A stretch of DNA of 64,000 nt. Origin: a virus. The notes below the pieces were generated by a model, which saw only the letters and a list, made by a program, of their open reading frames with translations, ran no database searches and was not told where the DNA came from. Location: the IMG/VR virus record IMGVR_UViG_3300042521_002634, positions 34,427 through 98,426 of that record; one strand, 5' to 3'. The position numbers were made by a program, and so were the translations under genes. Shown one piece after another: positions 12,177 to 34,772 of the stretch (its first letter is position 1; each line of letters begins with the position of its first letter).

Positions 12177-12528
12177 TGCACTATTGTATCATACTTAATT
12201 GTGTACATCGCTGCCTTGTTTGACGAACACGACAATACCTGCGGCGGAAAAATCACACCCTGCTTGCGCTGCTCTGCGTGCGTGCCGAAGGCACGCCGCG
12301 TCTTCTGCTAGTGTCATTCACCGCGGCGGAAGACTATGTACAAGGGGAAGTATAGTACCTTGCCATAATTGCCTTGGACGTGAGAGAGGGATATGGATAG
12401 AAATACAGAAAGTGTAAAGTGTCTCCAACTTTTTTAGAAAAATATTTTTTTCTTTGCGAAAAGTTGAGCGCGAGCGAAGAAAAAAGTTGCTCTACTTTTT
12501 TAGATTCCAAAGTTTTTATAATGATGAC

Positions 12529-12888
12529 ATGATGAAAAGAAAAAACATTGTGAGTGTGCTACAAAGTTTGAGTGAGAAAAGCGCGCGTGCAAAGAGCTTG
12601 CCTCCTCTCACTCGAGCAGAGATGAGCAAGTGGCGAGATCCATTTGGCAGAGAGATGTTGACTAGCGCCTCTGCGTTCGCTCAACAGAAAGAGAAAGCAG
12701 AAAAGAAAAAGCGATTTGTTGTTGTTCGACACAGCGATGGAAAAGCTTGGTCAGGTCCATGGCTTAACGATGGAAAGCGATTCTCCTCAGTAGAAAGCAA
12801 GTGGCACTACTTCTTGCGAGAAGAAGACGCGGAGCAAGCTGTAGAGCGCGAAGGCTTCGACTATAGAGTTGATGTGTTTGAAATGTAG
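12529..12888 (+). CDS. Hypothetical protein, probably leaderless, lone + strand cassette
   Basis: ATG 6 nt after TATAAT of the motif copy at 12506-12522; track start 12454 runs through the promoter. Confidence 0.65.
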   Translation: MMKRKNIVSVLQSLSEKSARAKSLPPLTRAEMSKWRDPFGREMLTSASAFAQQKEKAEKKKRFVVVRHSDGKAWSGPWLNDGKRFSSVESKWHYFLREEDAEQAVEREGFDYRVDVFEM

Positions 12889-12901
12889 AGCGTGACTATG
12901 C

Positions 12902-13345
12902 TTAGACGATGACGTTGATGAATGGTTCATCAGCGAACAAAGCTACAAGCATGTCCGCATCGACAGTGCCGGTTACCGCACGGTTGTTGGCCGCTTGATA
13001 TTGCTCTACCGCACGCTTAGTTGCGTCTGCATACCAGCCGTCTTTGTCAGTGCCTGCTTCATTGAACCCGCATTCGACTAAACGACGTTGAAGGTGATGT
13101 ACTGACAACGACTTGCGTGTTGCTGGGTTTTTGTAGATGCACATGTCAAGCCGCACGTCATCGCTGTCCGCACCGCTTGCGACAATTCCTACGCCAGACT
13201 TGACCGCACGCTTACGCGGCGCAGGTTCAGGTGTTGGTTCAGGTGTTGGTTCAGGAGCAGGCGCTACTGGCTGCTCTTCGACAACTACCGCAGCCTCTGC
13301 CACGACTGGAGTCTCTTCAACTGCTGGGGTTTCTTCGTTGCTCAT
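12902..13345 (-). CDS. Peptidoglycan-binding-domain protein with Pro/Glu-rich N-terminus
   Basis: VHHLQRRL...DGWYADATKRAVEQYQ...TGTVD (PG_binding_1-like). Confidence 0.7.
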   Translation of the reverse strand: MSNEETPAVEETPVVAEAAVVVEEQPVAPAPEPTPEPTPEPAPRKRAVKSGVGIVASGADSDDVRLDMCIYKNPATRKSLSVHHLQRRLVECGFNEAGTDKDGWYADATKRAVEQYQAANNRAVTGTVDADMLVALFADEPFINVIV

Positions 13346-13395
13346 TTGTTTACCGTACTTTCTTTAAAGACTTGATGTGTAATTGTATACCCGCA

Positions 13396-14811
13396 CTAGC
13401 GAGGCGAGAACACACGGCCACCGCCGCGGCCATTGCCGTTCCTAAAGCTTGGCAAGCGTCTGTGCGCCAACGACTTGGCTGTGATAGTTCCTCCGAGGAA
13501 GCCCGCAGGTGGCTTGATTAGCAAAGCAGTAAGTGCGTGAACTAAGGCGTCAACTCTGTCTGGTGACTTGCCTTCACCTGGAATCCATGCGCACATCTGC
13601 GACTCGAGGTCCGCAAGATAATTGACGTGATGCACGCGGTTTTGCTCGTAGGCAAGTGTGATTGGTTCAGCACGCAAGGCTTTGCCGACCTTTGAATGAA
13701 CCTCAAATACTTTGATCGTTGGGTCGATTGTGTTGATGGCATTCCGCACTAGTGCGCCGCCTTGGTTTACTTCTGCTACAACAGGGCACGACCACTTGCG
13801 CGCCATTTGAACTACCGTATTGGCCCAGCGGTCTGGCGCGCCAAGAAGTGACGCGTCCTCGAGAACCCATGAATGACGCTTGTACAAGTCACGTTCGCCT
13901 GTGGAAGCAACAACAACAATCCCGCATTCGTCGCGCGGATTCTCGGCTACGGACGGGTCGACGCCGATGCAGCGCAATGGCGCGCCAAGCGGCAGTTGTT
14001 TTTCCCGGGCGCGTTCAATCAGCTCGATAGTCCACAGCGCGCCTTCGATGTCACTAAGCATTTCACCGTAGAGCTCTTGAGCTGCCAACCGAGTGCCCTC
14101 GTAAACGCCTGTGATTGCGTCAAGATAGGTGCTTGAAAGGTTGCCCGCATTGTCAAGTGTCGAACCTCGTGACACGACAACGCGCCCAGTTTTTTCTGCC
14201 TCGTTCAGCAAGCCGTACAGCATTGGCACACGCTTTGGCGTTGTAGTGCAGATGATTTGTGGATTGGCGCCAAGACGAGTTGCAACTCGAACGTTGTCCC
14301 ACGACGTCATGCCCGCAGCGTCTGGCGACTGACGCCACGCCGCAATCTCGTCGCACCAGGCGTAGTGAAACTGAGGACCGCGAAGGCCGTCGGGTTCGTC
14401 AGCAGTAAAGCAAGTAGCCGTATTTCCGTTGGGCCAAGTCAGACGGCGCTTCGATGGCTCGTATAGTGGGCGCTCGCTTGGCGGCGAAACAGAAATGATA
14501 CCAGATTCGCCTTCAACAATTACGTCACGAACGTCGGCTGCAGTACGAGCGACAAGGGCAAAGCGAAGTTGGCCCATGTTTGTGACCTTAGCTCTATCAC
14601 GAACCCACTCCGCAGCTGACCGCGTCTTACCAGCACCGCGGCCAGCGAGGTACATCCATATTGACCAGTCATCTCCCGGCGGTGGCACTTGTTCCGGCCT
14701 TGCCCAGAGTTTCCAGTCCCACACAAGAAGCTCTGGGTCGATTCCGTCGAGAACTTTGTCACGCTCTTCGCGCGGCAACTTAGCAAGCTCTTCCATGATG
14801 CTCTTGGCCAT
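13396..14811 (-). CDS. terL: Terminase large subunit
   Basis: Walker A AGRGAGKT, LRGPQF, Walker B WCDE, TTTP coupling motif, nuclease GVDP and SPDRVDA. Confidence 0.95.
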   Translation of the reverse strand: MAKSIMEELAKLPREERDKVLDGIDPELLVWDWKLWARPEQVPPPGDDWSIWMYLAGRGAGKTRSAAEWVRDRAKVTNMGQLRFALVARTAADVRDVIVEGESGIISVSPPSERPLYEPSKRRLTWPNGNTATCFTADEPDGLRGPQFHYAWCDEIAAWRQSPDAAGMTSWDNVRVATRLGANPQIICTTTPKRVPMLYGLLNEAEKTGRVVVSRGSTLDNAGNLSSTYLDAITGVYEGTRLAAQELYGEMLSDIEGALWTIELIERAREKQLPLGAPLRCIGVDPSVAENPRDECGIVVVASTGERDLYKRHSWVLEDASLLGAPDRWANTVVQMARKWSCPVVAEVNQGGALVRNAINTIDPTIKVFEVHSKVGKALRAEPITLAYEQNRVHHVNYLADLESQMCAWIPGEGKSPDRVDALVHALTALLIKPPAGFLGGTITAKSLAHRRLPSFRNGNGRGGGRVFSPR

Positions 14812-14823
14812 GGAGCTATTGTA

Positions 14824-15051
14824 CTACGAAGCAGCAGCCTTGTAGCCGCAAGGGCAGTGTTTTGAAAGCATTGGCATCATCCTTGCGCCACACCTCGGGC
14901 AGGGCTCTTCAACTGCCCTGCGCGAGTGATCACGGTCGTCGTAGTGTTTGTACGAAGTTACGTCCGCATGCTTTTTGACAACATGAATCATCGCATCGTT
15001 CGCGCTGTCGTGTCTGGCATCGCAGAACTTGCACTTATGTTTGCCTGCCAC
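14824..15051 (-). CDS. Small zinc-finger protein
   Basis: CKFC...H...H and CPRC...CPCG; probable GTG start overlapping the upstream stop. Confidence 0.55.
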   Translation of the reverse strand: MAGKHKCKFCDARHDSANDAMIHVVKKHADVTSYKHYDDRDHSRRAVEEPCPRCGARMMPMLSKHCPCGYKAAAS

Positions 15052-16208: not shown

Positions 16209-16775
16209 TTAGAATCCAAACTTTTTTCGACACTCAGGTCCAAGTTGCAACTCACGAGAGCGAACATCTGTGAGCTCAGCTCCACATGAACCGCAGCACG
16301 AGTAGTGCTTGCCGAAGAGTTGCGTGTACTTGTACGGATCAACCGAGAGAATTGCGACGACTTCTTTAGTCTGCTCCGCTGTAAGCTTGCCGCGGTTAAA
16401 CGCGCCCGGAGCTCCATGGAGCGTGCGAATGTAGAGAGTGTTCATGTACTCTTTGATCTCAACAAAAAGCAAGTCATTTGCTACTTTGACTGACGACAGC
16501 TCGAGTTCGTCCGCAGGGATTGCGTACTTTGATTTCGGCACGCTTGCGAGAAGTGTCTGCATTCCGCCGGTCGCTTTCACGCGCTTAGGCAGCGCCAGAA
16601 ACGAGCTGATGTCCGAGCTTGCGTGCGACTTTGTGTAGTGGCCAGCAGAGATCGTGTCTTCAATGTGCTCCGCAGTATCCGCGTCAACCTCTCGGGTTGC
16701 GAGCAAGTCGCGGACAAAGCTGATCTGCTTTGGAGTCGCCATGTGGCGAAGTGTGTCTACGGCAGTAATTGTCAT
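16209..16775 (-). CDS. DUF6011-like zinc-ribbon protein
   Basis: ATPKQISF N-terminus; CGSCGAELTD..S..LGPEC C-terminus; start reset to the ATG after the GAAGGAC RBS. Confidence 0.75.
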   Translation of the reverse strand: MTITAVDTLRHMATPKQISFVRDLLATREVDADTAEHIEDTISAGHYTKSHASSDISSFLALPKRVKATGGMQTLLASVPKSKYAIPADELELSSVKVANDLLFVEIKEYMNTLYIRTLHGAPGAFNRGKLTAEQTKEVVAILSVDPYKYTQLFGKHYSCCGSCGAELTDVRSRELQLGPECRKKFGF

Positions 16776-16910
16776 AACGTCCTTCAGTCGGGCCAAGCGG
16801 GTTTGCTTGACAATTAAATTATATAAACTCTGGAAAATGCTCAACTAAACTCGAGTTGAGAAGACTGCTTGAAGAGCCGGGCCCCAACCGGCCCGGCTCC
16901 TCGAATTCAA

Positions 16911-17216
16911 TTAGAATTCGTAGCAGTAGTATTCGTGGCGCTCGCCGACGTAGAGCTTGAGGCCGCCTCTCATCGAGGATCCTTGCAGTACGTACTGGCC
17001 ATTCGCGCGAAGCGTGAACGTCATTGTTTCGCCTTGTGGATTTGGTGTGATAATCCACTGATTGCTCATTGGCGCACCGGTTGCAACAGCGTTGTCGCGT
17101 TGGGCGACCACTGTTTTGTTGTTTTCACTGACCGCGATAACAGTCATCGCAATCGTGTCGGCGCAGAATGAGACGGATGCTCCCATTCCAATTTCTGGTT
17201 TAATCATGGTTTTCAT
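16911..17216 (-). CDS. Cassette hypothetical protein
   Basis: Own promoter motif and CAACGACGAAAGGAC leader. Confidence 0.75.
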   Translation of the reverse strand: MKTMIKPEIGMGASVSFCADTIAMTVIAVSENNKTVVAQRDNAVATGAPMSNQWIITPNPQGETMTFTLRANGQYVLQGSSMRGGLKLYVGERHEYYCYEF

Positions 17217-17323
17217 TTTTGTCCTTTCGTCGTTGTCAGGCTTGTTTGCTTGACAAGATAAATATATCATCTCTGGAACTCGAGTGGCCGGCCAGTTTGT
17301 GGCCGGCCGGCCGAACCTCGAGT

Positions 17324-17692
17324 TTAGCGGTTTGGGTAGAAGGGAATGTTAAGCAGTTTGCAGTGAGCGTCGATGAAGTCGATGATTGGTTTGCCGAATG
17401 CCGATATGCAGTCGTCGAAGTCGTCGCAGAAGTCTGAACCGGCGTAGTCGTAGCGTACGCCGTAGTTAAGTGTTTCGTCGGCTGAAAAGCCGATATTGAC
17501 GAAGTCGAAGACGTTGCCGTTGTAGTCGTGGCTGAAGTTGTTGAAAAACTCAGTGGTTTCGGTTGGGTCGTCGATGCCGGACTTAGTTGTAAGTAAGTAG
17601 GCGAGTGACAGTTTTGCGTCGAAGCTGACAGTTTCGTTGTCGATGTCGGTAAGCGTGATTTCGTAGGTGTCAGTTTTGAGTTGCGTTTTCAT
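17324..17692 (-). CDS. Acidic Asp/Asn/Phe-rich cassette protein
   Basis: Own promoter motif and AAAGGAC RBS. Confidence 0.75.
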   Translation of the reverse strand: MKTQLKTDTYEITLTDIDNETVSFDAKLSLAYLLTTKSGIDDPTETTEFFNNFSHDYNGNVFDFVNIGFSADETLNYGVRYDYAGSDFCDDFDDCISAFGKPIIDFIDAHCKLLNIPFYPNR

Positions 17693-17747
17693 TTTTGTCC
17701 TTTTGTCGTTGTTGGTATATACATTATACAAACTCTGGAACTCGAGT

Positions 17748-17909
17748 CTACTGATCGTTCAACCGTACAGCAATCAGTCCAGCCAACCCAAAGGCTATCG
17801 GCACAGGTGTGTTGGCGCCGGCAATGGCAGAAACGACTGAGACTACTCCGCAGCCTGCTGCCACTACCGACGTCCAAATAACGTCACGAAAACGTGAACG
17901 CCAGTTCAT
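17748..17909 (-). CDS. Small membrane protein (53 aa)
   Basis: MNWRSRFRDVIWTSVVAAGCGVVSVV...; TAATG overlap with upstream gene; below track cutoff. Confidence 0.55.
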   Translation of the reverse strand: MNWRSRFRDVIWTSVVAAGCGVVSVVSAIAGANTPVPIAFGLAGLIAVRLNDQ

Positions 17910-18250
17910 TAGGCCTTGCGGCGAGTGCGACCCTTGAGACGCGACGAAGCATCGCGAACTGGAGTGCCTGCTTCATTGATAAGTTTACGGGCCTTGCCGT
18001 AGGTTACGCCCAAAGCTTGAGCTACTTCTACAATTGGCTTTCCTTCTGCGTAAAGCTGCGCTGCAGCTTGTGGAGTTGGAGTTGACATTATTCCTCGTTT
18101 CGTTGTTTGTTGTTTGTGCCGCACTGGCTCGTCAGTTGGCGTCATTGCCAACTGAGCTCGGGAGCGTGCGATAAGCTCCTCCGCCTCGACGAGTAGCATT
18201 TCGCTACTCACGATCAAACTCATTAGTTCGCTCGATAAGGCTGAAGTCAT
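17909..18250 (-). CDS. HTH DNA-binding protein (start may be 18088)
   Basis: YAEGKPIVEVAQALGVTYGKARKLI. Confidence 0.7.
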   Translation of the reverse strand: MTSALSSELMSLIVSSEMLLVEAEELIARSRAQLAMTPTDEPVRHKQQTTKRGIMSTPTPQAAAQLYAEGKPIVEVAQALGVTYGKARKLINEAGTPVRDASSRLKGRTRRKA

Positions 18251-18345
18251 TTAGTTTCTTTCTCAGCAACGCGTTCTCTATTTCTAGCTCCGCGTTTCGT
18301 CTTTGTAAGTAACTCATTGACCATTCTTCTTCCTTTGTCATAGCG

Positions 18346-18666
18346 TCAGATCGATGGTATATCATTTTCGTCATAAAGTACACCTTGATCCGCATCTTTT
18401 TTAGGAGCTACTACTCCAAGTAAGGTTTTTGAATCTTTTTGCGCAAAACGCTTGACAGACCACACAGTTGCGAAGTGCACCGCTGGCAGCAGCAGCCCAA
18501 GGCTCGTGATGAAGACGATGCCGGCTGCGAGACTTGTTTCTCCAACAAACGGAATAACAATCAGTGGAATAGCAATTGCTAAACTTAAAAAGATAGCCGC
18601 AAACGTTCCTGGTTGATTTTTTGTCACTTGTTCCTCACTTTCAATTTTAATATACCACAATTGCAA
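18346..18666 (-). CDS. Two-TM membrane protein
   Basis: Two hydrophobic helices; start uncertain. Confidence 0.55.
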   Translation of the reverse strand: MQLWYIKIESEEQVTKNQPGTFAAIFLSLAIAIPLIVIPFVGETSLAAGIVFITSLGLLLPAVHFATVWSVKRFAQKDSKTLLGVVAPKKDADQGVLYDENDIPSI

Positions 18667-18759
18667 CCGCTCAGATCATTTACACGACCTCAGCCAGCCA
18701 CTTTTCAATTCCAGCCGGCGAAGTGACTCACAAACGCAGTGCGTGCCTGTGCAGACAGT

Positions 18760-19017
18760 CTAGCCCTGGGTTGGCAGCTGAATTTCTTGCCCAGGGTAGA
18801 TTGTAGACGTGCCAAGGTTTAGAACTAAGTCGTCCATGGCATTTACAACGTTGCCTGAGCAATTTGCCTGAGCGATGCCGTGTAGCGTCTGGCCTTCCTG
18901 CACTGTCACGGCCGGCGAGTTGCAAGTGTACTTGCCACTCTCTTGCGCGACCTTGACTAAGCCTACAGCCGCAACTGCTGCCAGGGCAACAAAAAACATT
19001 TTACGTGCTTTCGTCAT
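18760..19017 (-). CDS. Membrane-anchored LysM protein
   Basis: TM/signal followed by VTVQEGQTLHGIA...IYPGQEIQLP. Confidence 0.8.
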   Translation of the reverse strand: MTKARKMFFVALAAVAAVGLVKVAQESGKYTCNSPAVTVQEGQTLHGIAQANCSGNVVNAMDDLVLNLGTSTIYPGQEIQLPTQG

Positions 19018-19126
19018 TTAAGTCTCCTTCGTCATTGTAGTTGATAGTACTATTTTAACTTCTTTGGAACTGAGTTCCCTAAAGCTTAGCAGCCCGGGCG
19101 ACGATTCCCGGGCGCCAGCGATCTAA

Positions 19127-19354
19127 CTAATAAGCGTACGAGTTTGAGTGACCCCAGACACGTTGATGTACCGCCGCGATGTCCGCAGCCTGCTCGTTGC
19201 TTTCGCATTCCATCTTTAAAATGACGGAATCGCTCGAGTCACCAGTCGGGCTTGCGAACCAAAGTTCAAGGGTTTTGCCGTAGAGCATGTAACCTCTGAA
19301 CGCGCCTTTGCTCTCTCGAACAGTCGAGAGTGCTTCGTCTGTCATTGCCATTTC
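19127..19354 (-). CDS. Cassette hypothetical protein
   Basis: Promoter motif 19399 and GAAAGGAC RBS; exact start uncertain. Confidence 0.6.
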   Translation of the reverse strand, partial: EMAMTDEALSTVRESKGAFRGYMLYGKTLELWFASPTGDSSDSVILKMECESNEQAADIAAVHQRVWGHSNSYAY

Positions 19355-19416
19355 ATTTCGTCCTTTCGTAAGTGCCAACCATTTTGGCTGACAGAATTAT
19401 ATTAACTTCTCTGGAA

Positions 19417-19593: not shown

Positions 19594-19729
19594 CCTTTCG
19601 TCGTTGATAGATACAATGTATCATCTCCGGAACTGAAGTCGTAGGCCGGCTTAGTCAGAGTCCGCTCTAGTTCCGGAGATGATATATTTATCTCATCAGC
19701 ACAACGCTGGTAACGACGAAAGGACGAAA

Positions 19730-19978: not shown

Positions 19979-19997
19979 TCTTCGTAAATGGTAAGTC

Positions 19998-27354: not shown

Positions 27355-27356
27355 TC

Positions 27357-27560
27357 TCAATCGCGTTTAGGGAACGCAATGATCTTAGCATCAGGCGGTT
27401 CAGGCAGCACCTCGATGTCGAGGATGTCAACCATCTCTGCGTCTTCTATTCCCTGCGAGACAGCTGCGAATACCTCACCGTCTATCTCTGTGTATGCGTC
27501 AGGCCCGCGCCTCACGCACAGCCGGACCACTACTGAGTAGAGGACCGTGCCTTCACTCAT
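27357..27560 (-). CDS. Small hypothetical protein
   Basis: ATGA overlap with 27557..27775. Confidence 0.6.
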   Translation of the reverse strand: MSEGTVLYSVVVRLCVRRGPDAYTEIDGEVFAAVSQGIEDAEMVDILDIEVLPEPPDAKIIAFPKRD

Positions 27561-27775
27561 GATTGTGCGGCGTCAGGGAACACCAACGGCAGCGCTAACT
27601 GCGCCGTCGGTTTCATCTTGCCGCCTGACAACTGCAGCGCGATACTTCCACGCTCGCCTTCAGGCGCGTTGTCGACGTCTTCCCACTCGTCCTCGGTCCA
27701 GTCTGATGTGTCGACGACGACTAATTGACGAGCATTGCCGTAGTTTCCATCGGCAGCGAAATAGTGAATTGTCAT
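27557..27775 (-). CDS. Cassette hypothetical protein
   Basis: YFAADGNYG...DTSDWTEDEW; promoter 27805. Confidence 0.7.
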   Translation of the reverse strand: MTIHYFAADGNYGNARQLVVVDTSDWTEDEWEDVDNAPEGERGSIALQLSGGKMKPTAQLALPLVFPDAAQS

Positions 27776-27888
27776 TAGGTTATCCTTTCGTTGTTGTTAC
27801 GTACATTATATAAACTCTGGAAGAATGAACCAACCCGGGAGGAACACTAAAGGACAAGTAAAGTGTGTCCACCCCGGGCCGGCGATCT

Positions 27889-29682
27889 TTAGCGTTGAAC
27901 TGACTCCAGCGCTCTTGCTGCTGCAGATCCTATCTGCGTCGCTACGTCTGCGGCACTTGTAATCTTCTCGACGAGCTGCACTGACTTGGTGCTCGAGCTA
28001 TTGAGAAGTCGACGAGCGTCGTCACTCGCTAACGGAGACACAACCATGACTCCGACACCAAGTCTTTCGCACTCATCTAACCAGCGTCGTGCGTTCTTCG
28101 TCTCTTCGTGAGTGTAACACAGATCGCTAACGATGACGAGCAATCGCGCGCCTACGCCATTGAGCAAGTTCAACGAACCATCAAGCGCTTTGAATGCTTT
28201 CTCAAAGCGTTCAGTTCCATCTGGCGCCGAGTACACTGTCACCTCTGACAAGTGCTGCCCGGGCTTCAATGTTGGGAACACCCCAGTGCCGTAGTAAACC
28301 ATCGCCGCACGGCCTTGAACTCTCCGCACCGCTTCGCTCATGACCCACGCTGTCACTGCCATCGGCTCCATCGCCGAGGACATTGAACCGCTGATGTCGA
28401 CCATTACGCCGACAGTGAGAGTTGGGTCGTCAGTGTGCGTGCGCTTAGTCCGGCGCCATGGCTCTACTTGCGTCATGATGCCCTTCGACTTAAACGCTGC
28501 TCCCTGCACCATAGCGCGCGTGCGCAACCGGCCAGGAGGAACGATCGACTTAATCTCAGTCTCGTCACGCTCACGATACTTAGCTTTCTCAAGCATCTGC
28601 GCTACCTTGACTGCTGCTGCTCGTTCATCACCACGTGGAGCGCGCTTTTCAACTAGACGACTGTTTGTCTCAGAAGAAGATTCTGGCCCAGTGCCTCTAC
28701 CGAATACTTTGTCCGCAGCGTCCTTGTGTTCTTTCTGCTGCTTCGCTGCACCGCTTCGACTTTTAACTTCACGCTCCCATTCTTCTTGCGTCTGTTGATC
28801 TGCTGCATCGGCTGAACCACCGACAGCTGCGTTGCCAGCTGCTTCCTCGAGTGCTTCCTCGAGTGCTTCCCCGAACTCGCCAAGCTCGCCTAGCCCTGAT
28901 TCACCTTGACCAGGCTCTGGCTCACCAGCTTCAGCTGCTGCCTCTTTAACTAATCTTGCCCACTCACGGGCGACAGGGTAGAGACCTTCAATTGAACTGT
29001 GTGAAGTGTAGTCCTGAGCTTGCAGCCATAGGTTGCGAAGCTTAGTGAAGAGCTCTACACCAAGCTTATTGATTAGAACTTCCTCTACAGTCTCGATGTC
29101 TGACAGCTCGAGTGAACCCGCATCTACGCGTGCTGACGTGAGTGCCGCCATGTGCGCTGCTGTCCACATGCTGCTGGTGTCTACACCGGTGACATTGAGG
29201 TCAGCCATCACTATCTCGAGCGCGCAAGCGCGGAGAAACCCGGAGTTACCTGGCATCAAGGTGACGCCTAAGTTCTCGATACGACCTTCTTCAAGAAGCA
29301 CGAGTGCTTTGAACTCAAGAGACTCGAGGTCCTTCTGCGCTTTAATGAGATCCCAGCGAGAGAACCGAGCGTGGAGAGCTTCATGGAATATGACACCAGA
29401 AGCTTTAGGCCAGTCGAACTGAACGCTGCGTTGCGTCATGTCGCCGATCGACGCCGGCGTTATTGACTTGCCAAACGCTCTCGTCACATCTACTTCGATC
29501 TCTGCAAGCATTGGGTTGTAGCACGCTGGTGCCACGCCGCCACCGGCGCCTGGGCCGACGTACGCGATAACATCTGCGCGTTCTGCCCAGATATTTGTAA
29601 TCTGGCCGATCTGCACGCCTACGCCTAACCACTCGGGTGGCGTAGCCTCAGCTCGAGAGCTATTAATCTTAAAATGTGTCAT
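27889..29682 (-). CDS. vWA-domain protein with N-terminal HExxH metallopeptidase-like domain (CobT-like MoxR partner)
   Basis: HEALH...LEEGRIE; MIDAS motif DISGSM, DGTE, VSD. Confidence 0.85.
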   Translation of the reverse strand: MTHFKINSSRAEATPPEWLGVGVQIGQITNIWAERADVIAYVGPGAGGGVAPACYNPMLAEIEVDVTRAFGKSITPASIGDMTQRSVQFDWPKASGVIFHEALHARFSRWDLIKAQKDLESLEFKALVLLEEGRIENLGVTLMPGNSGFLRACALEIVMADLNVTGVDTSSMWTAAHMAALTSARVDAGSLELSDIETVEEVLINKLGVELFTKLRNLWLQAQDYTSHSSIEGLYPVAREWARLVKEAAAEAGEPEPGQGESGLGELGEFGEALEEALEEAAGNAAVGGSADAADQQTQEEWEREVKSRSGAAKQQKEHKDAADKVFGRGTGPESSSETNSRLVEKRAPRGDERAAAVKVAQMLEKAKYRERDETEIKSIVPPGRLRTRAMVQGAAFKSKGIMTQVEPWRRTKRTHTDDPTLTVGVMVDISGSMSSAMEPMAVTAWVMSEAVRRVQGRAAMVYYGTGVFPTLKPGQHLSEVTVYSAPDGTERFEKAFKALDGSLNLLNGVGARLLVIVSDLCYTHEETKNARRWLDECERLGVGVMVVSPLASDDARRLLNSSSTKSVQLVEKITSAADVATQIGSAAARALESVQR

Positions 29683-29800
29683 TTGTCCTTGTCCTTTGTT
29701 GTCCTTGTACTATCAATTATATAAACTCTGGAAAGAGAGGTTAGCCTCCCGCACACCTACGGGAGACCAACCAACGAAGACTGAGCGCGAAAGGCAGCGC

Positions 29801-30793
29801 TTAGATCTTCGCCGGGCGACACTCTTCTCCGAATACTCGGGTGAAGACGTCAGCCACGACTGGGCGATCCATCTCGGGAGCGGCAGCTAGCAAGTTCGCG
29901 ATAGCGAATGATGTGCCGAACTCCTTTGCGAGATCGCGGAACGCTAGAAGCTCACGCATCTGAGGAGCCCATGAGACTTCAGACGACTGCTGCTTCTTAC
30001 TTAAATTTTGCGCCGCAGTGACGATTGGCACCGGAGCTCCTAACTTACGAGCGAGCGACCAATCAGTCGTCATCTCTGCTTGCACAAGGAATCGTGACAA
30101 GAGAGCTTCAGACAATCGCACGCCTGGAGCGTTCGGGTTAGTCGCTGCGATTACGTAGAAACCTGGAGCAGCTTTCACTGTCCCACGCTCTGGGTTAGCA
30201 GTCACAGTGTATTCACGACGGCCATCCATGAGACCGTAGACGATACTGAGCACCTTCGGGTCGATAAGACCTACCTCATCGATGAGCAGCACTCCGCCGC
30301 ACTCCGCTGCTTTAAGCAGTGGGCCGTCCTCCCAGACAAAGCCACCACTTGGTGTCTGCACATATCCGCCGACTAAGTCAGCAACTTCTGTGTCGCCTGA
30401 GCCGAGCACTGTGAACAAGCCACCGGACTCGCCAGTGAACGCAGCTTCAACAACAGCAGTCTTACCGCAACCTGGTGCGCCGTACAAAAGTACGTATGCT
30501 GACATGTCTCTCGACTTGCGAAGCACCATGACATCGTCATGCTCACCCCACTTGCGTGAGTAGTAGTTCTCGCCATTTGGTCGAGTGTAACTCTTCTCGC
30601 CTACAAGCGCGTCTGCAGATATCATTGGAACTTTCTTCTTCGGAGCGATAGTCTTAGCCTTGACGCGTCCTGCGTCGAGAACCATTGACTTCATCTTATC
30701 CGCGAACTCTGAGTGCAGAGTCTGCCCCGCTGCTGCAAGCAGCACTTTGTCTAGCCCCGGGTGGAGCTTGTCGTATTCTGTACTTGATAACAT
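29801..30793 (-). CDS. MoxR/CobS-like AAA+ ATPase
   Basis: GAPGCGKT, WEDGPL, LLIDE, ATNP, EALLSRF. Confidence 0.9.
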   Translation of the reverse strand: MLSSTEYDKLHPGLDKVLLAAAGQTLHSEFADKMKSMVLDAGRVKAKTIAPKKKVPMISADALVGEKSYTRPNGENYYSRKWGEHDDVMVLRKSRDMSAYVLLYGAPGCGKTAVVEAAFTGESGGLFTVLGSGDTEVADLVGGYVQTPSGGFVWEDGPLLKAAECGGVLLIDEVGLIDPKVLSIVYGLMDGRREYTVTANPERGTVKAAPGFYVIAATNPNAPGVRLSEALLSRFLVQAEMTTDWSLARKLGAPVPIVTAAQNLSKKQQSSEVSWAPQMRELLAFRDLAKEFGTSFAIANLLAAAPEMDRPVVADVFTRVFGEECRPAKI

Positions 30794-30865
30794 TTTGTGT
30801 CCTTTCGTTGTTTGTCGTTTGGTGTGTTACTTACTTATTCATTATTATTATAAAGACTCTGGAAG

Positions 30866-31312
30866 CTAACTCTGCTTCCAGTAATCTTCAAAACTAAGAA
30901 ACTTGCGAGCTTTGTTGACTCGGCCAAGAGCCTTGTACGCGAGCTTGCCTCTGGCCGCGTCATCGACATCCTTCTGCGTGAGCTCGACGACGATTGGCTC
31001 TTTGTACAGAGCCCAGCCTCGAGTTGAAAGCTGCTGCATTGTCGAGTCTGTCAACGACGTCAGCCAAGTCGATGCCTGAACTTCAGCACTGCCGGGTCCT
31101 GGCATAACAGGGCTTGGCGTCGGGCCTGTGTAGCATCGCCACTGTCTGCGTGCTACCGCTGGCGAGATCTGTCGACGGAATACTGTAAACGGCATCATAA
31201 GCGATGAAGACGACCTAAGCGGCGGAAACATCATCATTTGATACGACGTTTTGTCGTGCCTAAATTCTAAGTAGAGCATGTGCCCTACAACTTCTGTTGA
31301 ACTGTCATTCAT
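30866..31312 (-). CDS. Cassette hypothetical protein
   Basis: Promoter 31342 and RBS. Confidence 0.7.
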   Translation of the reverse strand: MNDSSTEVVGHMLYLEFRHDKTSYQMMMFPPLRSSSSLMMPFTVFRRQISPAVARRQWRCYTGPTPSPVMPGPGSAEVQASTWLTSLTDSTMQQLSTRGWALYKEPIVVELTQKDVDDAARGKLAYKALGRVNKARKFLSFEDYWKQS

Positions 31313-31428
31313 TATTTTGTCCTTTCGTTTGGTGTGAATACATTATATAAACTCTGGAAAGCTGCCGGCTGAGGAGGGTTTCAGCCGACAGCAGTTCTGT
31401 GCTCAACTTCCGACCGGGAGTTGATTCT

Positions 31429-31806
31429 CTAGACAGCGTGCTCGTGCGAGCACACTGATAGAAAGACTTCGAAACCGAAGTTCACAAGGTCATGCTCTCC
31501 AGCGATGTCCTGAGTGACGACAGTCTGGTCTGACCAGGTGACGAGATGCACGTCATCTGTATCAGGCTCACAGAAGTCCCGGCCGCCGGCTGTAATGCCG
31601 AAGCCAGTCTCTTCACTCCACGAGTCTCCCACAATTGAGGAGATTGCGATGCGAGTCGCGTATGCTGAATCGCTCCAGCGTGGACGAGCTTTCTCGATTG
31701 CCGTGGCAATCAAGCTCAGTCTGTCGCTGCCACCCCAGTGACTGTATAGCCACACGGGAGGAGTATCTTTAGTGTCGCGGAATCCCACGACGAATCTGTC
31801 ACCCAT
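31429..31806 (-). CDS. Conserved phage hypothetical protein
   Basis: MGDR...LYSHWGG...RW.DS.YATRI; promoter 31853. Confidence 0.75.
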   Translation of the reverse strand: MGDRFVVGFRDTKDTPPVWLYSHWGGSDRLSLIATAIEKARPRWSDSAYATRIAISSIVGDSWSEETGFGITAGGRDFCEPDTDDVHLVTWSDQTVVTQDIAGEHDLVNFGFEVFLSVCSHEHAV

Positions 31807-31974
31807 TGCTTTGTCCTTTCGTCATTGCCAAGCGTTATTGCTTGACGAATACATTATAACAACTCTGGAATTACAGGCCTAGGCTGTCTTACCGCGTCCT
31901 CACGCATTGGCAAGACAGTCTAGGCCAGACCGAACGTCAGCCTGCATTACTATGCACGGCATCAGTCTGGGCTC

Positions 31975-32307
31975 TTACTTGGCGTCGAGGACCGTGTAAG
32001 ACGACTGAACTAGCGTAGCGTCGTGCGCTTCAGGGAACGCAGTCTTGAGCGCTTCACGATCAATCTTGCTCATGTTGCGATGTTGAATTCGCACACGAAC
32101 AGTTCCATTGATTGTGCCACTCTTCGCGTCACCAAGCATTGCACGAAGCTTTTGCTCCGCTTCTGCTTTCTTCGCTTCAAACGCCTTGATTGCTGCTTTC
32201 GCAGAGTTGAACTCTGCAATCGCAATCTCAGTTGCAAGTTCATCGAGAATTGCAACCTGCTCTGCTACTTCGACTGTTGAGGTCGTGATTACTGTTGATG
32301 TTGTCAT
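31975..32307 (-). CDS. Phage protein resembling the C-terminal part of YqaJ-like/Gp157 proteins
   Basis: Coiled coil followed by IDREALK.AFPE; start reset after RBS. Confidence 0.6.
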   Translation of the reverse strand: MTTSTVITTSTVEVAEQVAILDELATEIAIAEFNSAKAAIKAFEAKKAEAEQKLRAMLGDAKSGTINGTVRVRIQHRNMSKIDREALKTAFPEAHDATLVQSSYTVLDAK

Positions 32308-32406
32308 TATTGTCCTTTCGTTGTGTGTATAGTCATTATATAAACTCTGGAAACGAGAATCAAAGACGCTCGTTCCCAGAGTTGAATTCATTGTATATCA
32401 GGGGTG

Positions 32407-32820
32407 TTACAGGGTTGCTGACGCCAGCACTCTTGCTGGCTTCGAGTCATCAACATGACTTGCGCCATGGAGCTTGACCCAAGCGTCCCAGTAGCACGTT
32501 GACGAGCCATCGTCGAACGTCACCTGCTGACTCTTCAGGATGAAACCTGGAGAGCAGTTGCATGTGCAACCGGCGTGCTGCGACCAGCTCAATTTGCTGA
32601 TGTCAAGCACTCCTGCAAGTCCGCTCGAGTGAATCATCGACTTGTAGACATTGTACGGGCGACGCTTGCGATTCGCAAGGTTGCTCATAAGTGTCTCATC
32701 TTCGATGCTTACGTACATCCGAGGAGCTGCTGTCAGCTCTCGGCTGCTTGTGTATCTACGTTCAGTGAACGTAATTGACCCTCCAGTGAATTCCACTGTA
32801 CGTCGTCGTTGCGTATTCAT
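32407..32820 (-). CDS. Cassette hypothetical protein
   Basis: WSQHAGCTCNCSPGFI; promoter 32850. Confidence 0.75.
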   Translation of the reverse strand: MNTQRRRTVEFTGGSITFTERRYTSSRELTAAPRMYVSIEDETLMSNLANRKRRPYNVYKSMIHSSGLAGVLDISKLSWSQHAGCTCNCSPGFILKSQQVTFDDGSSTCYWDAWVKLHGASHVDDSKPARVLASATL

Positions 32821-32966
32821 TGTCTTGTCCTTTCGTTTGGTGTAAATACATTATATAAACTCCGGAAAGTTCGGAAGGCCGCTCAAGACGCCACATTCGT
32901 TGAACTCAGTTCTGCCTGTTTAACGGAGTGTCAGCTCCGCACCTTCCTGGCTATCAGCCAATTCTT

Positions 32967-33161
32967 CTAAACGTTGTTGATTGGCTCAAACCCAAGGTCT
33001 AGCGCGGCGCGGCGCGCTTCCTTAGCAGTCTTGAACCCACTGAACGTCGGGCCGACCACCTCGGTGTTGTGGCCGTCGTACGTGCGGTGTATGCCAAAGT
33101 ACCGACCATTCGGCCCTTTGTATACGACCATCGGCCGTAGAGGCTTAGCTTTCGTTTTCAT
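32967..33161 (-). CDS. Small cassette protein
   Basis: Promoter 33195 and RBS. Confidence 0.7.
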   Translation of the reverse strand: MKTKAKPLRPMVVYKGPNGRYFGIHRTYDGHNTEVVGPTFSGFKTAKEARRAALDLGFEPINNV

Positions 33162-33211
33162 TCTTTGCGTCCTTTCGTTGAAGTTGATAGTGATATTGTA
33201 ACAACTCTGGA

Positions 33212-33466
33212 TTAGCTCTCGCCAAGTGGATCGATTACTCGGCGAAGAGCTGTGTCAATATGAGCGTCTGCATAGCTCTTCTCAAAGCGGAAGCCATCAT
33301 CGCAAGCTCGGTGATACACGAACCAGCGATAGAAGACCTCGATGTCTTTTACAACTGGTATGCGTCCGGCTGCGAACTCTGTTCTAAACCGATCACGCAG
33401 CACCGGCGTGTCTATTCCGCTAACTACGTGCTCCAGCTCTGCAAGTTCGACTGATGATACTTTCAT
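33212..33466 (-). CDS. Small cassette protein
   Basis: DAHIDTALRRV; promoter 33494 and RBS. Confidence 0.7.
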   Translation of the reverse strand: MKVSSVELAELEHVVSGIDTPVLRDRFRTEFAAGRIPVVKDIEVFYRWFVYHRACDDGFRFEKSYADAHIDTALRRVIDPLGES

Positions 33467-33513
33467 TGTTGTCCTTTCGTTTGGTGTAGAGTCATTATAT
33501 AAACTCTGGAAAC

Positions 33514-33744
33514 CTAAGAATGAGGACTCATGACTGGGAATGCGCACTCAACACAAACAACCCATGATACTTCTAATTGATCGCATACTACAACAGCTGG
33601 AAAGAATTCGTCGTCTGTCGGGCCAACAACCATTCCGCAGTTGCAGCACTCGCTTGACTCGTAAAAAAAGTCGTAAGCGCCGACTTCAGCTGCGATCATT
33701 GCCTCAATTGGTGTCTCGACTAAGAGAAGGTTATAGCCCAACAC
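33514..33744 (-). CDS. Small zinc-binding protein (start uncertain)
   Basis: CCNCG...CVEC. Confidence 0.5.
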   Translation of the reverse strand: MLGYNLLLVETPIEAMIAAEVGAYDFFYESSECCNCGMVVGPTDDEFFPAVVVCDQLEVSWVVCVECAFPVMSPHS

Positions 33745-33791
33745 GATACAACTGGCTCACGTTCATGAGCCAACTGTATCAAATCAGAAGC

Positions 33792-34334
33792 CTAAGCTAG
33801 GCGTTTAATTTTTGCCAGACGGTCTTCAAGTTCGGCTACCCGGGCCTGAAGTTTCGCTGTTCGCTCGCTCACAAGAAGATCGATGAGCTGATCTGCAGTG
33901 TGCTTTTTGGCAGCGGTCTTGCCTTTTCGAGTGCTAGCAGGCCGACGTCCAGTTTTAAGGACGACGCCCGGTACAGCTTCAGCGACGGTGCGTGGAGGCA
34001 CAACGTTGCCTTTAGCCCAGTACAGCGACGCTTGATAGCCTTTAGGCGCTTTCATTGATGAGCGAATGAGACGTTCATCCATGGTCTCGGTACGCTTGCT
34101 TACCAGGCCGGCGGCTTCCAAACGAATCAACGCGTTTCTCACTGACACCGGATCGGCTTTTCGTCCGGTCATCTGGCTAATTGCTTGCTGAAGCTCAAGA
34201 ACGCTGAGTGGTTGAGTAGATTCAAGCAACGTAAGTTGAACGTTGTCTTTCAGTGTTTGGAACATCATTATTTTTTCTTCTATTACTTGATTGTACTTGC
34301 GCATCGTTTTCTCCTGTGTCTGTTGTATGTTCAT
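33792..34334 (-). CDS. Winged-HTH DNA-binding protein with coiled-coil tail (start may be 34304)
   Basis: PLSVLEL...SVRNALIRLEAAGLV; promoter 34345. Confidence 0.65.
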   Translation of the reverse strand: MNIQQTQEKTMRKYNQVIEEKIMMFQTLKDNVQLTLLESTQPLSVLELQQAISQMTGRKADPVSVRNALIRLEAAGLVSKRTETMDERLIRSSMKAPKGYQASLYWAKGNVVPPRTVAEAVPGVVLKTGRRPASTRKGKTAAKKHTADQLIDLLVSERTAKLQARVAELEDRLAKIKRLA

Positions 34335-34340
34335 TAATAA

Positions 34341-34748
34341 TTATATATTATCATCTCTGGAAACCCAGTTGCCTTCGGTATCGCCAAAGAGTAGCTGATC
34401 GTCTCCAGTTCTAGTCCAAGAAAACTCGCAGCACGAGTGTTCGTCTTCGTCTTCAAAAAGAGTGTGATACGGGGCACCGGCTCGAAAAATGTTTGGAAGA
34501 GCGCGAGCAACCTTTAGAAAGCAGTCGTGACAGAGCACTGTCATTTCTCGTTCTGGTTCTTCAAACATAAAATCGACGAACATGCCATAGCCGCCAAGTA
34601 AGTCAAGGACCATGCCATTTATAACTTGCGGATACTCTTCACGAGGCTCGTAGTCGATATCTACGTCTTCCACGTATTTTGGATTTTGAACGTGAGTATC
34701 CTGATTACACTCGTCGCAACGAGTCTTTGGGTAGCTGTCTCTTATCAT
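34341..34748 (-). CDS. Cys-rich cassette protein, probably leaderless
   Basis: CDEC, GGYGMFVD, LCHDC; promoter 34756. Confidence 0.7.
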   Translation of the reverse strand: MIRDSYPKTRCDECNQDTHVQNPKYVEDVDIDYEPREEYPQVINGMVLDLLGGYGMFVDFMFEEPEREMTVLCHDCFLKVARALPNIFRAGAPYHTLFEDEDEHSCCEFSWTRTGDDQLLFGDTEGNWVSRDDNI

Positions 34749-34772
34749 TACCAGAATTATATAAACTCTGGA

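What the first reader, a model, noticed from the sequence alone, without database searches (positions are those of the whole stretch)
12506..34772. Thirty-copy promoter-cassette array with a non-canonical TCCRRAG box fixed 4 nt upstream of the -10
Seen: 30 copies of TCC(A/G)(G/A)AG-N4-TANNNT (one with N5), each oriented into an ORF. The ORF starts either 6-7 nt downstream (leaderless) or after a short leader, typically CAACGAAAGGAC. The 4 spacer bases and the -10 interior vary while the box and spacing do not. I see no conserved -35 and no copies beyond 34.8 kb; genes elsewhere use plain or extended -10s. The box sits at about -23 to -17. Known: repeated early promoters mark host-takeover regions (e.g. 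SPO1), and actinobacterial WhiA/WhiB activate via a box near the -10. Inference: an undescribed regulon read by a dedicated activator or modified RNAP; candidates are the phage WhiB and HTH proteins or the virion ART.
Basis: partly seen in the sequence, partly recalled or inferred. Interest (0 to 1): 0.88.

Follow-up and report, generated by a model that had tools for sequence, protein, structure and literature searches.

The report
Actinophage promoter array with -20 box
An uncultured lake phage of actinobacteria drives about 30 small genes from copies of one promoter that has a normal -10 box, no -35 box and a fixed 7-base box four bases upstream; relatives use other upstream elements at the same place in the genome, so the box probably replaces the -35, but what reads it is unknown.

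Summary
There are 29 exact copies of TCCRRAG-N4-TANNNT plus one N5 copy, against 0.35 expected by chance. All lie at window 12.5-34.8 kb, and there are none elsewhere in the 98-kb virus record. Each copy is intergenic and points into an ORF.

The copies behave as sigma-A-type promoters:
- The -10 is TATAAT-like, +1 is a purine flanked by pyrimidines, and there is no -35.
- ORF starts lie either exactly 6-7 nt after the hexamer (7/30 here; 41/266 in 12 relatives) or 27-53 nt after it, behind a Shine-Dalgarno leader.

New here: 80 related IMG/VR phages carry homologous cassette arrays, and each uses one main upstream element.
- Some use a canonical -35.
- Some use an extended -10 (CCTGATATAAT).
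- Some use a PafBC-like GTCRS-N10 element, often together with a -35.
- One clade, including this phage, uses the box (core C-Y-A-R-R-G at -22..-17).

So the box most likely serves as the second anchor of the promoter. It sits exactly where the Z-element of T7 A1 lies. What reads it is unresolved: an adaptor protein, RNA polymerase itself, or a repressor. I found no phage sigma factor, RNA polymerase or clade-specific DNA-binding protein.

Cassettes are shuffled between relatives, as with T4 PeSLs. This scan has already found similar arrays in other lake actinophages. I rate it a new variant of a known kind.

The parts
16209..34772 (-). Main cassette array: 27 minus-strand box promoters, plus 2 plus-strand ones at 19672 and 20033, in front of small mostly unknown genes.
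12506..12522 (+). Outlying box promoter TCCAAAG-TTTT-TATAAT; leaderless ORF 12529-12888(+).
16818..16834 (-). Box promoter for gene 16209-16775 (DUF6011). 42-nt leader with a 5'-terminal hairpin.
17261..17277 (-). Box promoter (ATGA, TATATT) for 16911-17216. 44-nt leader with a 5' hairpin.
17723..17739 (-). Box promoter for 17324-17692. The upstream stop codon is 8 nt before the box.
19052..19068 (-). Box promoter (TCCAAAG-AAGT-TAAAAT) for LysM gene 18760-19017 and the genes downstream.
19399..19415 (-). Box promoter for 19127-19351. Leader with a 5' hairpin.
19615..19631 (-). Box promoter (TCCGGAG) for 19417-19587. It sits back to back with the promoter at 19672(+).
19672..19688 (+). Box promoter (TCCGGAG) for 19730-19978(+). 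Leader with a 5' hairpin.
20033..20049 (+). Box promoter; leaderless ORF 20056-20307(+).
21478..21495 (-). The single N5 copy (TCCAGAG-TTTGT-TATAAT) for 21044-21448, followed by WhiB gene 20805-21044.
23221..23237 (-). Box promoter for 23068-23175, 22859-23068 and the S8 protease gene 21618-22862.
24375..24391 (-). Box promoter for 24124-24333, 23838-24140 and 23239-23829 (annotated HslV in DSL-LC01; only a sub-threshold Pfam Proteasome hit here).
25438..25454 (-). Box promoter; leaderless ORF 25294-25431.
25718..25734 (-). Box promoter; leaderless ORF 25463-25711.
26077..26093 (-). Box promoter for 25744-26046.
26522..26538 (-). Box promoter for 26324-26509. The upstream stop codon abuts the box.
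26860..26876 (-). Box promoter for 26539-26832.
27038..27054 (-). Box promoter; leaderless ORF 26885-27031.
27240..27256 (-). Box promoter; leaderless ORF 27063-27233.
27805..27821 (-). Box promoter for 27557-27775.
29716..29732 (-). Box promoter for the 597-aa gene 27889-29682 (annotated 'cobalamin biosynthesis protein' in DSL-LC01). A hairpin lies just upstream.
30847..30863 (-). Box promoter for AAA ATPase gene 29801-30793, the gene used to find relatives.
31342..31358 (-). Box promoter for 30866-31312.
31853..31869 (-). Box promoter for the 125-aa gene 31429-31806 (found in 20/20 box-clade loci and 4/61 others). Leader with a 5' hairpin.
32335..32351 (-). Box promoter for 31975-32307.
32850..32866 (-). 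Box promoter (TCCGGAG) for the 137-aa gene 32407-32820 (19/20 box-clade loci, 6/61 others).
33195..33211 (-). Box promoter (TTGT, TACAAT) for 32967-33161.
33494..33510 (-). Box promoter for 33212-33466.
34345..34361 (-). Box promoter (ATGA, TAATAT) for 33792-34304, a weak winged-helix plus coiled-coil protein.
34756..34772 (-). First promoter of the array; leaderless ORF 34341-34748 with the ATG 7 nt after the hexamer.

Best explanation
Each copy is a promoter for the host housekeeping (sigma-A) RNA polymerase holoenzyme, and transcription starts 6-7 nt after the TATAAT. That gives either leaderless mRNAs or 20-45-nt leaders carrying a Shine-Dalgarno sequence. These are hybrid promoters: a canonical -10, no -35, and a box at -23..-17 that acts as the second recognition element in place of -35 or TGn.

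My most likely mechanism for the box is a protein adaptor bound at about -20 that bridges the DNA to the holoenzyme. This is the logic of PafBC 'sigma adaptation' and of T4 MotA/AsiA, but at a different position and with a different sequence. Because the genes look early, the adaptor would be host-encoded or delivered with the virion; less likely it is an early phage protein.

The promoters head single-gene cassettes that recombine with each other. That recombination homogenises the promoter copies within a genome and shuffles genes between relatives.

Shown: the motif, its orientation, its geometry relative to ORFs, the conserved position of the box in relatives, the alternative architectures in relatives, and the shuffling. 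Inferred: the transcription start site, the early timing, and the anchor role of the box. Speculative: who reads the box.

The confidence of 0.42 is for the adaptor mechanism. I put about 0.9 on these being sigma-A-type promoters and about 0.75 on the box being a functional promoter element.
For: Promoter identity:
- The -10 is consensus. +1 is A or G in 27/30 copies, -1 is T or C in 28/30, and +2 is T or C in 24/30. This matches mapped actinobacterial promoters, which have TANNNT, no -35, a purine at +1 and 22-26% leaderless mRNAs (PMC3898074).
- The distance from hexamer to ORF start is bimodal. It is 6-7 nt in 7/30 copies here and in 41/266 copies from 12 relatives. In those relatives there are none at 0-5 nt, almost none at 8-26 nt, and a main peak at 27-33 nt.
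- G at -14 compensates for weak hexamers (p = 2e-4).
- Long leaders begin with a 5'-terminal hairpin.
- No sigma70_r2 domain or phage RNA polymerase was found in the 98-kb record.

Anchor role of the box:
- Homologous arrays in 80 relatives use one of three mutually exclusive main architectures: TTGACA-N16-18-TANNNT, CCTGATATAAT, or box-N4-TANNNT.
- A fourth element, GTCRS-N10-TANNNT, has exactly the PafBC consensus geometry. It gives 19 forward and 1 reverse in L083 and 12/4 in L096, often directly after TTGACA.
- Box phages form one clade on the ATPase tree (12 rows, SH-like support 98; 8 class changes against 31.9 after shuffling).
- The core C(-22) Y A R R G(-17) is conserved across 13 phages, while N4 and the flanks differ between phages.

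For an adaptor specifically:
- Relatives already use a promoter type that holoenzyme alone does not recognise and that needs an adaptor (PMC8635444).
- Box promoters are strictly confined to one block (47 forward, 0 reverse within 26 kb of a 117-kb relative), while other genes use TGn promoters.
- The box carries about 13 bits, more than the -10 hexamer.
- The box-plus-TATAAT pattern is not above its reversed control in 401 actinobacterial genomes.
Against: - No adaptor candidate emerged. The two proteins enriched in the box clade (125 aa and 137 aa) gave confident models with no fold match and no DNA-binding signature. The wHTH/coiled-coil and WhiB proteins are not specific to the box clade.
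- The box sits exactly at the Z-element position (5 bp lying 4 bp upstream of the -10), where RNA polymerase core can read DNA directly. A sister clade uses a purely polymerase-intrinsic extended -10.
- High within-genome conservation is also seen for the -35 and extended -10 versions, and even for N4. Copy homogenisation therefore inflates the apparent information content.
- The host is unknown. The 401 genomes sampled appear to be mostly the wrong class, so the host scan is weak evidence.
- There are no transcript data.
Confidence: 0.42

Rival explanations
1. RNA polymerase reads the box directly ('-10/Z' promoters). The box would be an actinobacterial version of the Z-element, contacted by the beta' zipper and/or sigma region 3. 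Together with a consensus -10 it would replace the -35, and no extra factor would be needed.
For: - The geometry is identical to the Z-element: -22..-18, '4 bp upstream of the -10'. That element can substitute for the -35 when the -10 is strong, and it was defined on the phage early promoters T7 A1 and A2 (PMC3173786).
- Sister clades use the two other polymerase-intrinsic anchors, -35 and TGn.
- The gene content looks early, which argues against a need for a newly made phage factor.
- No reader protein was found.
Against: - The sequence CTARRG / CCAGAG is unlike AACCT / AACAT.
- The published Z-element has a loose consensus, and single substitutions change activity less than 2-fold. Here seven positions are nearly invariant.
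- The box class and the TGn class are strictly segregated within one genome.
- The pattern is not enriched in the sampled actinobacterial genomes, though that test is weak.
Confidence: 0.33
2. The box is an operator for a shut-off repressor. The promoters would work as plain or extended -10 promoters with host polymerase. The box at -23..-17 would then be the asymmetric site of a phage (early) repressor that turns the whole class off later, as the many oriented stoperators of Cluster A mycobacteriophages do.
For: - In Actinobacteria a TANNNT alone often suffices as a promoter (PMC3898074), so the box may not be needed for basal activity.
- The site overlaps the polymerase footprint.
- There are many same-orientation copies confined to one temporal block.
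- A conserved wHTH/coiled-coil gene lies at the head of the array.
Against: - The box never occurs apart from a -10 above chance, and its distance to the -10 is fixed to the base. That fits a promoter element better than an operator.
- In relatives the same slot is filled by activating anchors: -35, TGn and a PafBC-type element.
- The wHTH protein is also present in phages without the box.
Confidence: 0.12
3. The box has no reading function. It would be conserved only because the promoter cassettes are copied and homogenised by recombination (a PeSL-like homology patch), with the box hitch-hiking on the -10.
For: - Within-phage conservation far exceeds between-phage conservation at N4, at -25/-24 and at -6..-3. 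In some relatives the whole 17-mer is nearly identical.
- Genes are shuffled between relatives at these junctions.
- Stop codons abut the repeat.
Against: - The core C-Y-A-R-R-G and its exact distance to the -10 stay conserved across 13 diverged phages, while the neighbouring N4 and flanks have changed.
- In this phage N4 varies (11 different tetramers) while the box does not.
Confidence: 0.08
4. The copies are promoters for a phage-encoded RNA polymerase or sigma factor, with the whole 17-24-nt block as a single recognition site.
For: - The conserved block is contiguous and phage-specific.
- About 26% of the genome is missing from the record (CheckV estimates 74% completeness).
Against: - No sigma70_r2 match and no RNA polymerase were found in 98 kb.
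- None is annotated in the 44-kb stretch of the complete relative DSL-LC01 that I read; the rest of that genome's annotation was not read.
- The canonical -10, the TG compensation and the 6-7-nt leaderless spacing are hallmarks of a sigma-70-family holoenzyme.
- Relatives use textbook -35/-10 promoters at the same cassettes.
Confidence: 0.05

Closest known systems
Z-element ('-10/Z') promoters of T7 A1/A2 (Yuzenkova et al. 2011, PMC3173786)
   Same: An element in the spacer exactly 4 bp upstream of the -10 hexamer (-22..-18). It works with a strong -10 and can replace the -35. It was found in phage early promoters read by host polymerase.
   Different: The sequence differs (AACCT/AACAT against CTARRG/CCAGAG). 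The Z-element has a loose consensus and weak single-base effects, whereas here 7-8 positions are nearly invariant in about 30 copies. Dependence on the beta' zipper is untested, and the host is an actinobacterium.
PafBC-dependent hybrid promoters, 'sigma adaptation' (Muller et al. 2021, PMC8635444)
   Same: An actinobacterial sigma-A promoter with a canonical -10, no -35, and a specific element between the -35 and -10 positions. Relatives of this phage carry that very motif (GTCRS-N10-TANNNT) on their cassettes.
   Different: The PafBC element lies at -28..-23 (12 nt between GTC and the hexamer) and contains GTC. The box lies at -23..-17 (N4) and has no GTC. The window holds no copy of the PafBC-type motif on the gene strand (2 on the other strand, chance level). 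No WYL protein is encoded in the record.
PeSLs, mobile early promoter/stem-loop cassettes of T4-type phages (PMC2839356, PMC4122927)
   Same: Dozens of near-identical early-type promoters flank small unrelated ORFs in a plastic region. Relatives differ by gain, loss and reordering of single genes at the repeats.
   Different: This is an actinophage, not a T4-type phage. The promoter lacks a -35. Most junctions have no terminator hairpin, and the stop codon often abuts the box. About a quarter of the units are leaderless.
Extended -10 (TGn) promoters
   Same: They are independent of the -35, and the upstream contact lies next to the hexamer. 11 of 30 copies do carry TG at -15/-14, preferentially those with weak hexamers.
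   Different: 19 of 30 copies lack TG. The conserved element lies further upstream (-23..-17) and is present whether or not TG is.
T4 middle promoters (MotA box with AsiA, 'sigma appropriation')
   Same: A phage regulon with a normal -10 and a phage-specific box replacing the -35. (The box position and the proteins involved are from general knowledge.)
   Different: The MotA box is centred at about -30. No MotA or AsiA relatives were seen, but they were not specifically searched for.

Membership tests
Sigma-70/sigma-A type promoter | A -10 hexamer TANNNT with the start site about 6-7 nt downstream, usually a purine. | tested here: met
   T, A and T at -12, -11 and -7 in 30/30 copies. +1 is A or G in 27/30. 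ORF starts lie exactly 6-7 nt after the hexamer in 7/30 copies here and 41/266 in relatives. The start site itself is inferred, not measured.
Canonical -35/-10 promoter | A TTGACA-like hexamer 16-18 nt upstream of the -10. | tested here: not met
   Under 0.4 bits at -52..-25. TTGAC[ATG]-N16-18-TANNNT gives 0 matches in the array, against 3-19 per locus in the relatives that use this architecture.
Extended -10 promoter | TG at -15/-14. | tested here: not met
   Only 11/30 copies have G at -14; 18 of 21 TATAAT copies lack it. It is an auxiliary feature of this class, not a defining one.
Z-element (-10/Z) promoter | A spacer element at -22..-18, 4 bp upstream of the -10. | tested here: met
   The last five bases of the box are followed by exactly 4 nt and then the hexamer in 29/30 copies. 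The geometry is as quoted.
Z-element (-10/Z) promoter | A sequence resembling AACCT/AACAT. | tested here: not met
   The box core is CAGAG here, and TAAAG or TAGGG in relatives.
Z-element (-10/Z) promoter | Activity depends on the beta' zipper and replaces the -35 contact. | not testable with these tools
   This needs in vitro transcription with wild-type and zipper-mutant polymerase.
PafBC / sigma-adaptation hybrid promoter | A canonical -10 and no -35. | tested here: met
PafBC / sigma-adaptation hybrid promoter | A -26 element with consensus tGTCgg-N10-TANNNT. | tested here: not met
   GTC[AG][GC]-N10-TANNNT gives 0 matches on the gene strand of the window array and 2 on the other strand. 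Relatives give 19/1 in L083 and 12/4 in L096. The box has a different sequence and lies closer to the -10.
PeSL-type mobile promoter cassettes | Repeated early promoter units flanking small ORFs in a plastic region. | tested here: met
   30 units over 18 kb here and 25-55 per relative, always in one block and on one strand.
PeSL-type mobile promoter cassettes | Gene gain, loss and reordering between relatives at the repeats. | tested here: met
   The order of shared genes differs between 11 box-clade loci, while the core of genes 16-17-18 stays fixed and the orientation is kept.
PeSL-type mobile promoter cassettes | A composite terminator stem-loop plus promoter; T4-type phage. | tested here: not met
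   Hairpins precede only a few promoters. In 13 of 30 units the upstream ORF ends 0-13 nt before the box. The phage is an actinophage related to DSL-LC01.
Stoperator-type repressor sites (Cluster A mycobacteriophages; from general knowledge) | Many asymmetric sites oriented with transcription that are not part of the promoter. | tested here: not met
   Every enriched box copy is locked to a -10 at N4. Stand-alone TCCAGAG occurs at chance level (5 against 6.8 expected).

The most novel reading that the evidence does not exclude
The box is the binding site of an undescribed adaptor, host-encoded or virion-delivered, that reprograms actinobacterial sigma-A holoenzyme at about -20. That would be a second sigma-adaptation-type mechanism beside PafBC. 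This phage family would then record repeated whole-regulon switches between four sigma-A promoter architectures (-35, TGn, the PafBC-type -26 element, and the -20 box), spread by cassette recombination.
Probability: 0.35. Interest if true: 0.8.

Novelty: new variant of a known kind. Interest (0 to 1): 0.6.

Why it matters
Mapped actinobacterial promoters mostly show a -10 and nothing else (PMC3898074). The authors of the PafBC study proposed that unknown adaptors recognising other upstream motifs may be common (PMC8635444).

This phage clade supplies hundreds of natural copies of one such hybrid promoter, with a sharply defined element at -23..-17. It also supplies sister clades in which homologous cassettes carry a -35, a TGn or a PafBC-type element instead. 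That is a ready-made comparative series for asking what can replace the -35 contact, and whether the Z-element position can carry strong sequence specificity.

It also shows how a whole regulon can change promoter type when its promoters sit in recombining cassettes.

The practical value is modest: compact, strong, leaderless-capable promoters for actinobacteria. The general phenomenon of promoter-per-gene cassette arrays in lake actinophages has already turned up several times in this scan.

Tried and rejected
- Close DNA relatives: megablast against the phage collection found nothing. blastn found only DSL-LC01 at about 70% identity, and its paper does not mention promoters.
- Exact box-promoter strings in IMG/VR gave only single, chance-like matches.
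- Host identification: the best genome match to the phage WhiB was 51% identical, in an Acidimicrobiaceae MAG, which is not decisive. 'Relatives' are not available for a virus record.
- Host scan: WCYNRRG-N4-TATAAT in 401 genomes of one actinobacterial class was not above its reversed control. The recurrent matches sat in genomes of about 32% G+C and showed no promoter context. One lies just upstream of a ribosomal protein S15-like ORF; the others look like orthologous conserved, probably coding, sequence. The sample is probably not the host class.
- Phage sigma factor or polymerase: no sigma70_r2 match and only sub-threshold r4-like HTH hits. No WYL domain. The 1309-aa ORF is a secreted beta-helix and Thr-rich protein, not a polymerase.
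- Reader candidates by phyletic pattern: the 125-aa and 137-aa proteins had no Pfam, PHROG-function or PDB sequence match. Their models are confident (pLDDT 90.6 and 81.8), but Foldseek found nothing at E <= 0.001, and VIA-align gave a best Z of 4.5 and 2.9. This is inconclusive, not negative.
- An inverted repeat around the -10 (GATTC...GAATC in DSL-LC01) is not consistently present in this phage, so I dropped it.
- The upstream ACTCGAGT in about 8 copies is part of an extended junction repeat, and CTCGAG is generally common in this genome (60 against 24 expected). I did not treat it as a second site.
- Rfam found only the tRNA.

Full report
**What is there.** TCCRRAG-N4-TANNNT occurs 29 times in the window, against 0.35 expected. 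One further copy has N5 (21478-21495). The window is the last 64 kb of a 98,426-base IMG/VR virus record that CheckV estimates to be 74% complete, and the other 34 kb holds no copy. In the aligned copies the conserved block runs from T(-24) through TCCAGAG(-23..-17). Then come four semi-conserved bases, TATAAT(-12..-7), and a purine seven bases after the hexamer, flanked by pyrimidines. Positions -52..-25 carry almost no information, so there is no -35. All 30 copies are intergenic and face an ORF. In 13 of them the upstream ORF ends 0-13 nt before the box. Twenty-seven lie on the minus strand between 16.8 and 34.8 kb. Two face plus-strand genes inside that block, and one outlier at 12506 faces a plus-strand ORF.

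**They are sigma-A-type promoters.** I have no transcript data, so this rests on geometry.
- The distance from the hexamer to the first credible start codon is bimodal. It is exactly 6-7 nt in 7 of 30 copies here. In 12 dereplicated relatives it is 6-7 nt in 41 of 266 copies, with none at 0-5 nt, almost none at 8-26 nt, and a main peak at 27-33 nt behind a CAACGA(C)GAAAGGA leader.
- This is the spacing expected if transcription starts 6-7 nt after a sigma-70-family -10.
- It matches mapped actinobacterial promoters, which have TANNNT, no -35 motif, 85% purine starts flanked by pyrimidines, and 22-26% leaderless genes (PMC3898074).
- The four 'spacer' bases include the extended -10 position. 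G at -14 accompanies 8 of 9 copies with a non-consensus hexamer but only 3 of 21 TATAAT copies (p = 2e-4). That is the compensation expected for contacts made by sigma region 3.
- The longer leaders begin with a stable hairpin at the predicted 5' end, and the stem sequences differ between copies.
- The record has no sigma70 region 2 match and no recognisable RNA polymerase.
- Outside the array, intergenic regions show TGnTAnnnT or plain -10 promoters without the box. Several are leaderless, including the ones before the large terminase gene and the Fpg-like gene.

**Relatives.** The only public phage genome with DNA similarity is Actinomycetia phage DSL-LC01, a 129-kb MAG from Dishui Lake. Its paper does not discuss promoters. 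Upstream of about 35 of its small genes sits gaTTCTAAAG-aTGT-TATAAT-aGAATCa. This has the same architecture with a slightly different box. Using the AAA ATPase of the array as a probe, IMG/VR returned 144 relatives, of which I kept 80 loci. Thirteen dereplicated phages share the box architecture, with 15-35 copies per 14-21 kb and almost none on the other strand. In whole records the copies fill one block on one strand. One 117-kb record has 47 forward and 0 reverse, all between 17.5 and 43.7 kb. Others have 55 and 29. Across phages the core C(-22) T/C(-21) A(-20) R R G(-17) and its distance to the hexamer are conserved. This phage is the only one with C at -21. In contrast, N4, positions -25/-24 and positions -6..-3 are well conserved within each phage but not between phages. 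That pattern marks copy homogenisation.

**The key comparative result.** The remaining relatives carry homologous cassettes with the same leaders, the same neighbouring genes and the same strand. Their promoters differ, and the three main architectures exclude one another.
- One group uses cTTGACA-N16-18-TAnnnT, a textbook -35/-10, with 3-19 copies per locus.
- A second uses cCTGATATAAT, an extended -10 without a -35, with 5-21 copies per locus.
- The third uses the box.

A fourth element appears in several relatives: GTC(A/G)(G/C)-N10-TAnnnT. It gives 19 forward and 1 reverse in L083, 12/4 in L096, 10/2 in L091 and 9/1 in L069, against about 1.3 expected per strand. It often follows directly after TTGACA. 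This is exactly the consensus and spacing of PafBC-dependent promoters, tGTCgg(N10)tA(N3)T. Those are hybrid promoters with a canonical -10, no -35 and a '-26 element' read by the PafBC adaptor (PMC8635444). I tested it on these loci myself.

On a FastTree tree of the ATPase, the box phages form one clade of 12 rows (SH-like support 98) plus one long-branch row. The extended -10 phages form two clades, and the -35 type is the scattered background. The tree needs 8 class changes, against 31.9 when the labels are shuffled. The box is therefore a derived, clade-wide replacement of the upstream anchor of an otherwise unchanged promoter.

**What reads the box.** This is not settled.
- The box occupies precisely the place of the Z-element defined on T7 A1 and A2. 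That element is five bases at -22..-18, 4 bp upstream of the -10. It is sensed through the beta' zipper of core polymerase and can replace the -35 when the -10 is strong (PMC3173786). This supports direct reading by the polymerase. So does the fact that sister clades use the two other polymerase-intrinsic anchors.
- Against direct reading, the sequence is unrelated and the published Z-element is weakly specific. Box promoters and TGn promoters are also strictly separated within one genome.
- The PafBC precedent, present within this same phage family, shows that actinobacterial sigma-A holoenzyme can be redirected by an adaptor that binds between the -35 and -10 positions. That supports an adaptor, which would have to be host-encoded or injected if these are early genes.
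- I put about 0.42 on an adaptor, 0.33 on direct reading, 0.12 on a shut-off operator, 0.08 on hitch-hiking in a recombination repeat, and 0.05 on a phage polymerase or sigma factor encoded in the missing quarter of the genome.

**The search for a phage-encoded reader failed.**
- Two small proteins are enriched in the box clade. The 125-aa protein is in 20/20 box-clade loci and 4/61 others; the 137-aa protein is in 19/20 and 6/61.
- Neither has a family, a PDB sequence match or a fold match, despite confident models.
- The protein at 33792-34304 looks like a weak winged helix plus a coiled coil, but it is also present in extended -10 phages and in a PafBC-type phage.
- The WhiB genes are at 20805-21044, behind a box promoter, and at 45831-46181.
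- A scan of 401 actinobacterial genomes found no excess of box-plus-TATAAT. However, the sample seems to be mostly Acidimicrobiia-like genomes and the host is unknown, so this weighs little.

**Cassette behaviour.** The order of shared genes differs between eleven box-clade phages, while orientation and a three-gene core are kept. Homologues of a given small gene sit on either side of the ATPase in different phages. Together with the homogenised promoter copies and the tight stop-box junctions, this is the behaviour described for PeSLs of T4-type phages (PMC2839356, PMC4122927). Unlike PeSLs, it occurs here in an actinophage, mostly without terminator hairpins, and with leaderless units. Earlier notes of this scan describe comparable arrays in other uncultured actinophages, so the general phenomenon is recurrent. 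What this case adds is the -20 box and the four-way switch of architecture within one family.

**Verdict.** This is a new variant of known kinds: -35-less hybrid promoters and mobile promoter cassettes. The question of what reads the box remains open and can be tested.

Noticed in passing
window 38942-39690: A 750-bp non-coding region lies between the divergent minus-strand and plus-strand gene blocks. One part is AT-rich with (G)TATAC repeats. Another holds three copies of AATAAC(T/C)GCGGCGAAAAA set in CT-rich tracts. It may be an origin or a control region.
   Followed up: no
window 16776-16812, 17217-17255, 31807-31847, 19352-19393 (all -) and 19694-19730 (+): The five longest leaders start with a 6-9-bp hairpin at the predicted 5' end (-6.6 to -10.8 kcal/mol, z -1.6 to -2.7). 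The stem sequences differ between copies. These look like 5'-end stabilisers.
   Followed up: partly
window 19615-19688: Two box promoters sit back to back 40 nt apart and drive divergent small genes.
   Followed up: partly
loci L083, L096-L099, L069, L077, L091 (IMG/VR relatives): The cassette promoters of these relatives carry GTCRS-N10-TANNNT, the PafBC (-26 element) consensus. It often follows directly after a TTGACA -35.
   Followed up: partly
window 39939-43868 (+): A 1309-aa ORF with a signal peptide, a beta-helix-like N/G/T-rich region, poly-Thr linkers and an acidic helical repeat tail. It has no Pfam match and looks like a secreted or surface protein.
   Followed up: partly
window 14812-14830 and 12177-12195: The large terminase gene (13396-14811) and ORF 11643-12176 each have TACAAT exactly 6 nt before the ATG. 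These structural-region genes therefore look leaderless as well, but they have no box.
   Followed up: no
window 11272-12176 (-): My crude gene caller missed two plausible ORFs (11272-11646 and 11643-12176). The second has a weak sigma-r4-like HTH hit (E = 0.04).
   Followed up: no
These look like recent duplication or conversion tracts.
   Followed up: partly
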